Assembly: GCF_988243305.1 (NCBI RefSeq) | Contig: NZ_OZ547136.1 | Length of the DNA stretch: 64,000 nucleotides | Direction: 5' to 3' (one strand) | Translations under genes and position numbers: made by a program | The notes under the pieces: model-generated | Seen by the model: the letters and a program-made list of their open reading frames with translations, nothing else | Databases searched by the model: none | Told to the model about the DNA's origin: nothing | Part shown: positions 60,364 to 62,560 of the stretch, one piece after another | Layout: every line of letters starts with the position of its first letter | Position numbering within the stretch: the first letter of the stretch is position 1

Positions 60364-61725
60364 ATGACCACACCCTCAGATTTGAACATTTACCAACTGA
60401 TTGACACCCAAAACGGTCGGGTCACTCCGCGTATTTATACCGACCCGGATATTTACCAACTGGAGCTTGAGCGCATTTTCGGTCGTTGCTGGCTATTTCT
60501 CGCCCACGAAAGCCAGATCCCAAAACCTGGTGATTTCTTTAACACCTACATGGGGGAAGATGCAGTTGTCGTAGTGCGTCAGAAAGACGGCAGCATCAAG
60601 GCGTTTCTCAACCAATGCCGCCACCGGGCCATGCGTGTGAGTTATGCAGATTGCGGCAACACTCGCGCCTTTACCTGCCCGTATCACGGCTGGTCTTATG
60701 GCATTAACGGCGAGTTGATCGATGTACCGCTGGAACCTCGCGCCTACCCACAAGGGTTGTGTAAATCCCACTGGGGGCTAAACGAAGTTCCTTGTGTGGA
60801 GAGTTATAAAGGGCTGATTTTTGGCAACTGGGATACCAGCGCACCGGGCCTGCGTGATTACCTTGGTGACATTGCCTGGTATCTGGATGGCATGCTGGAT
60901 CGTCGCGAAGGCGGCACCGAAATTGTCGGCGGCGTACAAAAGTGGGTGATCAACTGCAACTGGAAATTCCCGGCAGAGCAGTTCGCCAGTGACCAGTATC
61001 ATGCTCTGTTCAGCCATGCTTCTGCCGTTCAGGTATTAGGGGCGAAAGATGATGGCAGCGATAAGCGTCTCGGTGATGGACAAACCGCCCGCCCGGTGTG
61101 GGAAACCGCCAAAGATGCGCTGCAGTTTGGTCAGGACGGTCACGGCAGCGGTTTCTTCTTTACTGAAAAACCGGATGCTAATGTCTGGGTCGATGGCGCG
61201 GTTTCCAGCTATTACCGCGAAACCTATGCCGAAGCAGAACAACGTTTAGGTGAAGTTCGCGCCCTGCGCCTGGCGGGTCATAACAATATATTCCCCACGC
61301 TTTCATGGCTAAACGGCACTGCCACACTCCGCGTCTGGCATCCGCGCGGCCCTGATCAAGTCGAAGTGTGGGCGTTCTGTATTACTGACAAAGCCGCCTC
61401 CGATGAAGTTAAAGCTGCTTTTGAAAACAGCGCCACTCGTGCTTTTGGTCCTGCTGGTTTTCTCGAGCAGGATGACTCGGAGAACTGGTGTGAAATCCAG
61501 AAATTGCTTAAAGGCCACCGCGCCCGCAACAGCAAACTGTGTCTGGAAATGGGGCTTGGTCAGGAAAAGCACCGCGACGACGGCATTCCTGGCATTACTA
61601 ACTATATCTTTTCAGAAACTGCCGCTCGTGGAATGTACCAACGCTGGGCCGATCTTCTGAGTAGCGAAAGCTGGCAGGAAGTGCTCGATAAAACCGCCGC
61701 TTACCAGCAGGAGGTGATGAAATGA
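60364..61725 (+). CDS. hcaE: 3-phenylpropionate/cinnamate dioxygenase alpha subunit (Rieske)
   Basis: 453-aa ORF with Rieske motif CRHRAM...CPYHGW. Confidence 0.96.
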
Positions 61726-62240
61726 GTGCGCAAGTTTCACTGGAGTTACATCACCGCATTAGCCAGTTTCTCTTTCACGAAGCCAGTCTGCTGGATGACT
61801 GGAAATTTCGTGACTGGCTGGCACAGCTCGACGAAGAGATTCGTTACACCATGCGCACCACGGTTAACGCGCAAACACGCGACCGCCGCAAAGGCGTCCA
61901 GCCACCAACGACCTGGATTTTTAATGACACTAAAGACCAGCTGGAGCGGCGAATCGCTCGTCTGGAAACGGGCATGGCCTGGGCAGAAGAGCCGCCGTCA
62001 CGCACTCGTCACTTAATCAGCAACTGCCAGGTAAGCGAAACCGACATCCCAAACGTATTTGCCGTGAGGGTGAATTATCTGCTTTATCGGGCACAAAAAG
62101 AGCGCGATGAAACATTCTATGTTGGAACGCGTTTCGACAAAGTTCGCCGTCTGGAGGACGGGAACTGGCGCTTGCTGGAACGGGATATCGTCCTGGATCA
62201 AGCGGTCATCTCCTCCCATAACCTGAGTGTACTGTTCTGA
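61722..62240 (+). CDS. hcaF: 3-phenylpropionate dioxygenase beta subunit
   Basis: 172-aa ORF; its start overlaps the hcaE stop (ATGA at 61722-61725). Confidence 0.95.
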
Positions 62241-62560
62241 TGAATCGAATTTATGCGTGTCCCGTTGCGGATGTGCCGGAGGGTGAGGCTCTCCGGATCG
62301 ATACCTCGCCCGTCATCGCCTTGTTCAACGTGGGCGGCGAGTTTTATGCCATTAACGATCGTTGCAGCCATGGTAATGCGTCGATGTCAGAAGGGTATCT
62401 GGAAGATGACGCCACGGTGGAGTGCCCGCTGCACGCCGCCAGTTTTTGCCTGAAAACGGGGAAAGCATTATGCCTGCCCGCCACCGATCCGCTAACCACT
62501 TATCCAGTACACGTTGAAGGTGGTGACATCTTCATCGACTTACCGGAGGCGCAGCCATGA
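62240..62560 (+). CDS. hcaC: 3-phenylpropionate dioxygenase ferredoxin component (Rieske)
   Basis: 106-aa ORF with CSHG...CPLH Rieske ligands; start overlaps the hcaF stop. Confidence 0.95.

What the first reader, a model, noticed from the sequence alone, without database searches (positions are those of the whole stretch)
61722..62560. Translational coupling across the hca operon
hcaE/hcaF and hcaC/hcaB overlap by ATGA (4 bp), and hcaF/hcaC share a single nucleotide (TGATG). This is consistent with stoichiometric co-translation of the dioxygenase components. pbpC likewise starts at the base after the yfhM stop.
Basis: seen in the sequence. Interest (0 to 1): 0.1.

Follow-up and report, generated by a model that had tools for sequence, protein, structure and literature searches.

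The report
Overlapping gene junctions in hca operon
The stop and start codons of neighbouring genes in the E. coli 3-phenylpropionate dioxygenase (hca) operon do overlap as described, but this is a common, already tabulated gene arrangement that probably links their translation, so it is ordinary.

Summary
hcaE/hcaF overlap by ATGA (61722-61725), hcaF/hcaC share one base (TGATG, 62238-62242), hcaC/hcaB overlap by ATGA (62557-62560), and pbpC starts on the base after the yfhM stop (TAAATG, 39309-39304, minus strand). RefSeq annotation gives the same junctions. A 2023 survey of E. coli K-12 gene pairs (PMC10666635) already lists all four distances, so nothing is new.

I found two junction types. 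hcaF and hcaB have strong Shine-Dalgarno (SD) sites inside the upstream gene (-11.1 and -9.5 kcal/mol). hcaC and pbpC have none. In 80 orthologous loci from 24 genera the three junctions stay tight: E/F is -4 or -8 in 75 of 80, F/C is -1 to +5 in 69 of 75, and C/B is -4 to +3 in 74 of 75. hcaB/hcaD varies from -62 to about 1.4 kb.

Translational coupling by termination-reinitiation is the most likely mechanism, but it is untested for hca. The "stoichiometric dioxygenase components" reading is only partly apt. HcaB is not a dioxygenase component, the ferredoxin is not a fixed subunit, and the reductase gene hcaD is not overlapped. Interest is low.

The parts
60364..61725 (+). hcaE, alpha subunit of the dioxygenase (453 aa). 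It is the first gene of the operon, with a weak SD (AGGA, -4.1 kcal/mol) in an AU-rich leader that costs 6.4 kcal/mol to open.
61709..61716 (+). AGGAGGTG Shine-Dalgarno site for hcaF, inside the last codons of hcaE. AGGAGG lies 7 nt before the ATG; duplex energy is -11.1 to -11.6 kcal/mol.
   Evidence: An SD of -6 kcal/mol or stronger is kept in 20 of 23 genera, against 9.5% of background coding positions.
61722..61725 (+). ATGA junction where the hcaF start overlaps the hcaE stop (distance -4).
   Evidence: The distance is -4 in 66 and -8 in 9 of 80 orthologous loci.
61722..62240 (+). hcaF, beta subunit of the dioxygenase (172 aa).
   Evidence: Full-length match to PDB 8k0a_B.
62238..62242 (+). 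TGATG junction where the hcaF stop and hcaC start share one base (distance -1). There is no SD upstream (best duplex -3.1 kcal/mol, which is background level).
   Evidence: The distance is -1 in 49 and +2 to +5 in 20 of 75 orthologs, and an SD is absent in 21 of 23 genera.
62240..62560 (+). hcaC, Rieske-type ferredoxin (106 aa).
62545..62549 (+). GGAGG Shine-Dalgarno site for hcaB, inside the 3' end of hcaC and 7 nt before the ATG (-9.5 kcal/mol). In the predicted local fold it is paired, and the ribosome-binding site costs 16.3 kcal/mol to open.
   Evidence: An SD of -6 kcal/mol or stronger is kept in 20 of 23 genera.
62557..62560 (+). ATGA junction where the hcaB start overlaps the hcaC stop (distance -4).
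   Evidence: In 75 orthologs the distance is -4 in 30, -1 in 19 and +2 in 24.
62557..63369 (+). hcaB, dihydrodiol dehydrogenase (270 aa, short-chain dehydrogenase family). It is the next pathway enzyme, not a dioxygenase component.
63368..63381 (+). hcaB/hcaD junction: a 9-nt spacer carrying AAGGAAG (-6.1 kcal/mol), then the hcaD ATG at 63379. The ribosome-binding site is unusually open (3.4 kcal/mol, z = -2.9 against shuffles).
   Evidence: This junction is not conserved among orthologs.
63379..64000 (+). hcaD, ferredoxin reductase. Only the 5' part is present because the gene runs off the end of the window.
39304..39309 (-). TAAATG junction: the yfhM stop (39309-39307) is followed directly by the pbpC start (39306-39304), distance 0. 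There is no SD, and the ribosome-binding site costs 14.0 kcal/mol to open.
   Evidence: Listed as distance 0 in the PMC10666635 supplement.
39307..44268 (-). yfhM, alpha2-macroglobulin (1653 aa).
36994..39306 (-). pbpC, peptidoglycan glycosyltransferase PBP1C (770 aa).

Best explanation
This is the ordinary E. coli hcaEFCBD operon. Its first four genes are packed stop-against-start (-4, -1, -4). Ribosomes that finish one gene most likely restart on the next without leaving the mRNA (termination-reinitiation).

There are two junction types. At hcaE/hcaF and hcaC/hcaB, a strong SD site 7 nt upstream and inside the preceding gene can hold the terminating ribosome and position the AUG. At hcaF/hcaC, and likewise at yfhM/pbpC, there is no SD. 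Initiation there should therefore depend almost entirely on ribosomes delivered by the upstream gene. hcaD, behind a 9-nt spacer with its own SD and an open ribosome-binding site, is probably initiated largely on its own.

The consequence would be co-ordinated output of HcaE, F, C and B from one initiation event at hcaE, though not necessarily 1:1.

Shown here: the junction anatomy, the SD strengths, the predicted local structure and the conservation across orthologs. Inferred: that downstream translation actually depends on upstream translation.
For: - Junction anatomy is confirmed and matches PGAP annotation.
- Experiments on other native E. coli pairs with a -4 overlap found coupling in 4 of 5. 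The SD contribution ranged from essential to none, and coupling collapsed at about 20 nt of spacer (PMC6728339 and PMC10666635).
- The hca and yfhM/pbpC distances are listed in that survey, and the HcaE@HcaF gene-family pair has a median distance of -1 over 444 pairs.
- In 80 orthologous loci from 24 genera of alpha-, beta- and gamma-proteobacteria plus one Acidobacteriota genome, E/F is -4 or -8 in 75 of 80, F/C is -1 to +5 in 69 of 75, and C/B is -4 to +3 in 74 of 75. B/D ranges from -62 to about 1.4 kb.
- With one representative per genus, an SD of -6 kcal/mol or stronger precedes hcaF in 20 of 23 and hcaB in 20 of 23, against 9.5% of background coding positions (Mann-Whitney P about 1e-14). 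hcaC is at background level (21 of 23 at -3.1 or weaker).
- In two of the lineages where the F/C spacer widened, an SD appears in the spacer: Shimwellia (+9, GGAG, -8.3) and Diaphorobacter (+24, -10.8).
- Predicted cost of opening the ribosome-binding site is 12.9 (hcaF), 9.8 (hcaC), 16.3 (hcaB) and 14.0 (pbpC) kcal/mol, against 3.4 for the non-overlapped hcaD.
Against: - No experiment or ribosome-profiling result for hca was found or could be run.
- The opening energies of the three overlapped sites do not differ from dinucleotide shuffles (z = 0.2, -1.0, +1.4). They look 'not selected to be open' rather than 'selected to be closed'.
- Strong SD sites before hcaF and hcaB could drive independent initiation. 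bioB/bioF in PMC6728339 is a -4 pair that showed no coupling.
- Alcaligenes (+16) and Pseudomonas (+54) have widened F/C spacers without an obvious SD.
- The ortholog sample is dominated by Acinetobacter (28 loci), so locus counts overstate independence. The per-genus figures are the fairer ones.
- Start codons in the orthologs were assigned by rule, not by experiment.
Confidence: 0.62

Rival explanations
1. Independent initiation. Each downstream gene is translated by fresh 30S subunits recruited to its own site. The overlaps reflect only compact operon packing and do not make downstream translation depend on upstream translation.
For: hcaF and hcaB have near-consensus SD sites at ideal spacing (-11.1 and -9.5 kcal/mol, 7 nt). 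One of five tested E. coli pairs with a -4 overlap (bioB/bioF) initiated de novo (PMC6728339).
Against: hcaC and pbpC have no SD at all and are predicted to cost 9.8 and 14.0 kcal/mol to open. The lack of an SD at hcaC is conserved in 21 of 23 genera, always with a -1 to +5 junction, and an SD appears in two lineages where the spacer widened. The SD and AUG of hcaB are paired in the predicted local fold (16.3 kcal/mol).
Confidence: 0.18
2. Coupling by RNA unfolding rather than by re-use of the ribosome. The ribosome translating the upstream gene melts structure around the downstream start, and a new 30S subunit then binds. This is still translational coupling, but by a different mechanism.
For: The SD and start regions of hcaF and hcaB lie in predicted helices within coding sequence (12.9 and 16.3 kcal/mol to open). 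The 2025 review treats unfolding and reinitiation as the two open models (PMC12548453).
Against: The structures are no stronger than in shuffled sequence. Unfolding alone does not explain initiation at hcaC or pbpC, which lack an SD. In the tested E. coli pairs, short -99 to +30 fragments sufficed and efficiency fell steeply with distance, which favours reinitiation (PMC6728339, PMC10666635).
Confidence: 0.15
3. The overlaps are annotation artefacts. The true start codons lie downstream and the genes are separated.
For: None was found. A GTG at codon 13 of hcaC is the only nearby in-frame alternative.
Against: Each overlapped ATG is the first start in its reading frame. The N-termini are colinear with solved structures: 8k0a_B covers HcaF 1-172, and BphF and BphB align from residues 3-5. 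An ATG at or beside the stop is present in 23 to 24 of 24 genera for E/F and in all 23 genera for C/B. Where a nearest-to-expected rule chose internal GTG codons, these had no SD, while a -4 or -8 start (ATG in all but one case) with a strong SD was present.
Confidence: 0.02
4. The overlaps are a neutral by-product of mutation, for example stop-codon drift at A/T-rich stop and start signals, with no functional consequence.
For: The exact form drifts among lineages. C/B is -4, -1 or +2. E/F is -4 or -8, and one Citrobacter has -13 after losing the stop codon. Overlaps of -4 and -1 are the commonest configurations in all prokaryotes (PMC10666635).
Against: Proximity is held within -8 to +5 across three proteobacterial classes for E/F, F/C and C/B. 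In the same operons the B/D junction drifts freely.
Confidence: 0.05

Closest known systems
Overlapping co-directional gene pairs coupled by termination-reinitiation (E. coli hyfHI, astDB, ydbH/ynbE, menDH; Huber et al. 2019 and 2023, PMC6728339 and PMC10666635)
   Same: The junctions are of the same kind (ATGA at -4, TGATG at -1), on a single polycistronic transcript, often with an SD inside the upstream gene. The hca and yfhM/pbpC pairs are themselves rows in that study's supplementary table, with the same distances.
   Different: The hca pairs were only counted there, not tested. Here two of the four junctions (hcaF/hcaC and yfhM/pbpC) lack any SD.
E. coli K-12 hcaEFCBD 3-phenylpropionate/cinnamate dioxygenase operon with hcaR and hcaT
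   Same: Gene order, gene lengths (453, 172, 106 and 270 aa) and junctions are identical. The DNA is 98-99% identical to complete E. coli genomes. HcaF differs from PDB 8k0a_B at 3 residues.
   Different: Only allelic differences. The hca segment is at most 98.9% identical to any of 5,426 complete genomes.
Three-component Rieske ring-hydroxylating dioxygenase operons (bphA1A2A3, todC1C2B, cumA1A2A3)
   Same: An alpha subunit, beta subunit and Rieske ferredoxin are encoded in that order. HcaF, HcaC and HcaB match the biphenyl and toluene proteins at E = 1e-24 to 1e-81. The survey's HcaE@HcaF gene-family pair has a median distance of -1 over 444 pairs.
   Different: I did not measure junctions in bph or tod operons. 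All 80 loci analysed are hca-type orthologs with HcaE at least 59% identical.
Classical E. coli coupled pairs (trpB/trpA, rplK/rplA, atpH/atpA)
   Same: Translation of the downstream gene depends on translation of the upstream gene within an operon (cited in PMC6728339 and PMC12548453).
   Different: Those cases have been shown experimentally, and some rely on long-range RNA structure. For hca there is only sequence-based inference.

Membership tests
E. coli hcaEFCBD operon | Gene order hcaT, hcaR (divergent), then hcaE-F-C-B-D, with high identity to annotated E. coli loci | tested here: met
   The region is 98.8-98.9% identical over 3.3 kb to E. coli chromosomes annotated hcaE, F, C, B and D. 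The annotation tables show the same order and lengths.
E. coli hcaEFCBD operon | Catalyses 3-phenylpropionate/cinnamate 2,3-dioxygenation and is induced through HcaR | not testable with these tools
   Function is taken from the annotation names and from my own knowledge of Diaz et al. 1998, which the paper library does not hold.
Three-component Rieske ring-hydroxylating dioxygenase | A beta subunit, a Rieske ferredoxin and a cis-dihydrodiol dehydrogenase homologous to characterised systems | tested here: met
   HcaF matches 8k0a_B at 2.6e-113 and BphE at 1.6e-31. HcaC matches BphF at 9.7e-28. HcaB matches BphB at 5.1e-81.
Three-component Rieske ring-hydroxylating dioxygenase | Alpha and beta subunits form a 1:1 (alpha-beta)3 hexamer; the ferredoxin and reductase are separate components | not tested
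   Taken from homologues described in PMC3536784 and PMC9361823 (abstracts). The primary paper for 8k0a was not found.
Termination-reinitiation coupled gene pairs | Co-directional neighbours with a stop-to-start distance of about -8 to +6 nt | tested here: met
   The distances are -4, -1 and -4 in hca and 0 for yfhM/pbpC.
Termination-reinitiation coupled gene pairs | Both genes lie on one transcript | not tested
   PMC10666635 supplementary file 4 lists the transcript hcaEFCBD from a curated database. I ran no transcript analysis. The overlaps leave no room for a promoter or terminator between the genes.
Termination-reinitiation coupled gene pairs | An SD motif inside the upstream gene (frequent, but not obligatory) | tested here: inconclusive
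   Present for hcaF (-11.1) and hcaB (-9.5); absent for hcaC (-3.1) and pbpC (0). PMC6728339 reports that the SD contribution ranges from essential to none.
Termination-reinitiation coupled gene pairs | Downstream translation is lost when upstream translation stops early, at constant mRNA level | not testable with these tools
   This needs reporter constructs or ribosome profiling. No such data for hca turned up in the paper searches.
Termination-reinitiation coupled gene pairs | The tight junction is conserved among orthologs (supportive, not defining) | tested here: met
   The commonest distance per genus lies within -8 to +6 in 23 of 24 genera for E/F, 19 of 23 for F/C and 23 of 23 for C/B, against 2 of 21 for B/D.

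The most novel reading that the evidence does not exclude
The SD-less hcaF/hcaC junction (TGATG or TGAnnATG) may be an obligate reinitiation site. It appears to have been kept since before the alpha-, beta- and gamma-proteobacterial hca operons diverged, and an SD appears in two of the lineages where the spacer widened. On this reading ferredoxin synthesis is tied to beta-subunit synthesis. The operon would then offer side-by-side natural examples of SD-assisted junctions (E/F, C/B) and an SD-independent one (F/C) for dissecting how terminating ribosomes restart.
Probability: 0.4. Interest if true: 0.2.

Novelty: already known. Interest (0 to 1): 0.06.

Why it matters
It matters little beyond confirming that the annotation is sound. 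Stop/start overlaps of -4 and -1 are the commonest arrangement of co-directional genes in E. coli: 707 of 2,987 pairs lie within -8 to +6 (PMC10666635). These particular pairs are already tabulated there.

The one modestly useful addition is the comparative picture. Three junctions have been held tight across 24 genera, with a consistent split between SD-assisted and SD-less junctions, while the reductase junction drifts. That makes the hca operon a convenient natural test case for reinitiation models. It is also a reminder, when the operon is re-engineered for biocatalysis, that separating these genes may change the ratios of the components.

Tried and rejected
- The original description of the cluster (Diaz et al. 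1998) could not be read because the library does not hold it. A literature search on the four gene names returned only two unrelated papers.
- My first rule for assigning ortholog start codons took the start nearest the position expected from the alignment. For hcaF in 18 loci it chose internal GTG, TTG or ATG codons without an SD and gave spurious +14 to +70 spacers. Inspection showed a -4 or -8 start (ATG in all but one case) with a strong SD in each of these. I replaced it with a rule that ignores the upstream stop codon: the most upstream ATG within 25 codons. That rule in turn mis-assigns Acidocella E/F (TTG at -47), where GTG at -8 with an SD of -10.3 is the likely start.
- I tested whether the overlapped ribosome-binding sites are more structured than chance. 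They are not (z = 0.2, -1.0, +1.4). Only hcaD stands out, as unusually open.
- Rfam found no RNA family in the hca region.
- A search for explicit reports of translational coupling in ring-hydroxylating dioxygenase operons found only a remark about thnE/thnF, which are not dioxygenase subunits.
- I considered a misannotated start and rejected it.
- I did not run a population survey of the junctions across the 4,371 E. coli genomes that carry the region. It was not worth the calls.
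Full report
**1. Observation**

The region is the E. coli hca cluster. ORF listing and direct reading of the sequence give these genes:

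| Gene | Coordinates | Note |
|---|---|---|
| hcaE | 60364-61725 | |
| hcaF | 61722-62240 | |
| hcaC | 62240-62560 | |
| hcaB | 62557-63369 | |
| hcaD | from 63379 | runs off the window |

The junctions read ...GGAGGTGATGAA**ATGA**GT... (-4), ...CTGTTC**TGATG**AAT... (-1) and ...GGAGGCGCAGCC**ATGA**GC... (-4). The fourth reads ...**TAA**GGAAGCACG**ATG**... (+9).

On the minus strand, yfhM (39307-44268) ends in TAA at 39309-39307, and pbpC (36994-39306) starts with ATG at 39306-39304, so the distance is 0. Every statement in the finding is therefore correct at the stated coordinates.

The segment is 98.8-98.9% identical to many E. coli chromosomes in which PGAP annotates the same five genes. 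Two annotated genomes that I inspected show the same junctions.

**2. Are the start codons right?**

Three lines of evidence make that very unlikely.

- Each overlapped ATG is the first ATG, GTG or TTG in its reading frame after an in-frame stop, so no start lies further upstream.
- The N-termini are colinear with solved structures. PDB 8k0a chain B is HcaF residues 1-172. HcaC residue 5 aligns with residue 5 of the biphenyl ferredoxin 2e4p. HcaB residue 4 aligns with residue 3 of BphB 1bdb.
- In orthologs, a start codon touching the upstream stop recurs almost universally (section 4).

**3. Already known**

Huber et al. 2023 (PMC10666635) list every co-directional gene pair of E. coli K-12. 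Their supplementary file contains hcaE/hcaF at -4 (complex: yes), hcaF/hcaC at -1 (complex: yes), hcaC/hcaB at -4 (complex: not), hcaB/hcaD at +9 and yfhM/pbpC at 0. It also names the transcript hcaEFCBD. For gene-family pairs it gives HcaE@HcaF a median distance of -1 over 444 pairs, and YfaS@PbpC a median of 9.2 over 337 pairs.

The same paper reports that -4 is the commonest configuration in E. coli. It counts 707 of 2,987 co-directional pairs within -8 to +6. Short-distance pairs encode subunits of heteromeric complexes 4.5 times more often than pairs more than 20 nt apart (30.4% against 6.8%).

Huber et al. 2019 (PMC6728339) showed coupling in 4 of 5 native E. coli pairs with a -4 overlap, with an SD contribution ranging from essential to none. 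The finding is thus a correct re-observation of a documented and very common arrangement.

**4. What the junctions look like in detail**

*SD strength.* Duplex energy with the 3' end of 16S rRNA, scanned over the 20 nt or so upstream of each start, is as follows:

| Gene | SD energy (kcal/mol) | Motif |
|---|---|---|
| hcaF | -11.1 | AGGAGGTG, 61709-61716 |
| hcaB | -9.5 | GGAGG, 62545-62549 |
| hcaD | -6.1 | AAGGAAG |
| hcaE | -4.1 | AGGA |
| hcaC | -3.1 | none recognisable |
| pbpC | 0 | none |

So there are two junction types: SD-assisted overlaps (E/F and C/B) and SD-less abutting junctions (F/C and yfhM/pbpC).

*Local structure.* I computed the predicted cost of opening positions -18 to +12 within a -99 to +30 context:

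| Gene | Opening cost (kcal/mol) | z against shuffles |
|---|---|---|
| hcaE | 6.4 | +0.7 |
| hcaF | 12.9 | +0.2 |
| hcaC | 9.8 | -1.0 |
| hcaB | 16.3 | +1.4 |
| pbpC | 14.0 | not computed |
| hcaD | 3.4 | -2.9 |

The overlapped sites are as structured as ordinary coding sequence. The one non-overlapped site, hcaD, is unusually open. This is what one expects if only hcaD has to recruit ribosomes unaided.

*Conservation.* One scan of species-representative genomes with HcaE returned 80 loci (L004-L083). They cover 24 genera: Escherichia, Citrobacter, Kluyvera, Photorhabdus, Acinetobacter, Pseudomonas, Paraburkholderia, Alcaligenes, Xanthobacter, Kaistia, an Acidobacteriota genome and others, with HcaE 59-100% identical. 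The gene order E-F-C-B is kept.

I assigned starts with a rule that ignores the upstream stop codon. Distances were then as follows:

| Junction | Main distances (loci) | Genera whose commonest distance is within -8 to +6 |
|---|---|---|
| E/F | -4 (66), -8 (9), of 80 | 23 of 24 |
| F/C | -1 (49), +2 to +5 (20), of 75 | 19 of 23 |
| C/B | -4 (30), -1 (19), +2 (24), +3 (1), of 75 | 23 of 23 |
| B/D | +9 in Escherichia and most of its enterobacterial relatives; about 1 kb with an extra gene in Acinetobacter and Photorhabdus; scattered elsewhere | 2 of 21 |

The one E/F outlier, Acidocella, is a rule artefact. A GTG at -8 with an SD of -10.3 is present there.

With one representative per genus, an SD of -6 kcal/mol or stronger precedes hcaF in 20 of 23 genera and hcaB in 20 of 23. 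Only 9.5% of background coding positions reach that strength (Mann-Whitney P about 1e-14). hcaC is at background level (P = 0.10).

In two lineages where the F/C spacer widened, an SD sits in the spacer: Shimwellia (TGAggagccacaATG) and Diaphorobacter. Alcaligenes (+16) and Pseudomonas (+54) are exceptions without an obvious SD.

The exact overlap therefore drifts between -8, -4, -1 and +2, but proximity is preserved. This fits the steep dependence of reinitiation on distance reported in PMC10666635.

*Local base rate.* Among the co-directional neighbours annotated across the genes of this window in a reference strain, the only negative distances are the three in hca. The other very short distances are yfhM/pbpC (0), hscA/fdx (+1) and ppk/ppx (+4). 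The isc/hsc genes, which also encode interacting proteins, otherwise use +11 to +27 spacers within the operon core.

**5. Mechanism**

The most likely account is as follows. Ribosomes load at the open, AU-rich hcaE leader. At each of the next three junctions, a terminating ribosome restarts on the adjacent AUG. At hcaF and hcaB the internal SD helps hold and position it. At hcaC there is no SD, so restart depends on delivery by the upstream gene. hcaD is initiated mainly de novo. pbpC is an SD-less distance-0 case like hcaC.

The anatomy, the SD pattern and the conservation are shown. The dependence of downstream translation on upstream translation is inferred by analogy with tested pairs.

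Rival accounts are listed separately. They are independent initiation at the strong internal SD sites, coupling by RNA unfolding with fresh 30S subunits (the second open model in PMC12548453), annotation artefact, and neutral drift. Sequence analysis cannot separate reinitiation from unfolding.

**6.

It is partly supported. Coupling is plausible, but 'stoichiometric co-translation of the dioxygenase components' does not fit the pattern of which genes are joined.

- HcaE and HcaF fit, by homology to (alpha-beta)3 oxygenases (PMC3536784, PMC9361823).
- HcaC is a separate ferredoxin component, not an alpha-beta subunit of the oxygenase.
- HcaB is the next enzyme of the pathway.
- The reductase HcaD, which is a true component, is the one gene left outside the overlaps, and its position is evolutionarily unstable.

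Co-ordinated expression of the first four pathway genes describes the pattern better than subunit stoichiometry does.

**7. Verdict**

The feature is real, correctly described, conserved, and most likely functional as translational coupling. It is also ordinary and already catalogued. The novelty rating is 'already known' and interest is about 0.06.

**Seen in passing**

- A rare 3.4-kb insertion lies between yfgI and guaA. It carries an AAA_15/AAA_21 ATPase and a receiver-domain protein.
- The SinH/SinI/giant-adhesin island lies between xseA and der.
- The hca cluster is absent from about a fifth of complete E. coli genomes.
- Identity to the closest complete genome is mosaic along the window.

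Noticed in passing
window 7890-11290: A 3.4-kb insertion lies between yfgI and guaA and is absent from the reference strain I compared. It carries an AAA_15/AAA_21 (ABC-like) ATPase (ORF 8211-9725; weak defence-system matches: PDC-M01A 1e-17, AriA 3e-15, PtuA, GajA). It also carries an IS integrase-core pseudogene fragment and a 256-aa receiver-domain 'response regulator' (10230-11000). A full-length copy is in only 27 of 5,426 complete E. coli genomes, and it is 100% identical in CP062824 (O169:H41). It could be a small defence or signalling islet; its function is unknown.
   Followed up: partly
window 15950-27860 (minus strand): An island lies between xseA and yfgJ/der. It encodes the intimin-like inverse autotransporter SinH (25200-27407), SinI (24168-25145) and a 2,680-aa adhesion-domain protein with 9 matched stretches each of the InvE_AD and BIg21 domains (16005-24047). 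At least 80% of it is present in 934 of 5,426 complete E. coli genomes, and it is absent from the O158:H23 reference strain used for comparison.
   Followed up: partly
window 60200-63500: The hca cluster matches only 4,374 of 5,426 complete E. coli genomes, so about a fifth lack it. This window's copy is at most 98.9% identical to any of them.
   Followed up: no
window 14967-64000 compared with L084 (CP062824): Identity to the closest complete genome is mosaic. It is 99.9-100% at 24-28 kb and 50-52 kb, but 97.0-98.6% at 38-46 kb (yfhM/sseA) and 54-64 kb (csiE/hca). This is consistent with recombination patches.
   Followed up: partly
window 63368-63381, and loci L016-L075: The hcaB/hcaD junction is the only evolutionarily unstable one. 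Photorhabdus, Acinetobacter and several alpha- and beta-proteobacteria have about 0.9-1.4 kb, apparently an extra gene, between hcaB and the hcaD homologue. I did not identify that inserted gene.
   Followed up: no
L010 (Citrobacter youngae), about 6356-6371: The hcaE stop codon TGA has changed to TGC. HcaE is extended by three codons, which turns the -4 overlap into a -13 overlap while the hcaF ATG and its SD are kept.
   Followed up: partly
window 45510-45814 (+), 32576-32667 (-), 53047-53156 (-): Rfam matches at gathering score: ryfA sRNA (the timP toxin locus), sroE sRNA (between hisS and ispG) and the iscRS stability element. All are expected for this E. coli region.
   Followed up: no
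window 48599-53645 (isc/hsc operon, minus strand): The isc/hsc operon also encodes interacting proteins, yet it uses spacers of +1 to +27 nt within the operon core and no overlaps (seen in the reference annotation). Tight overlap is therefore not a general property of complex-encoding operons in this window.
   Followed up: no
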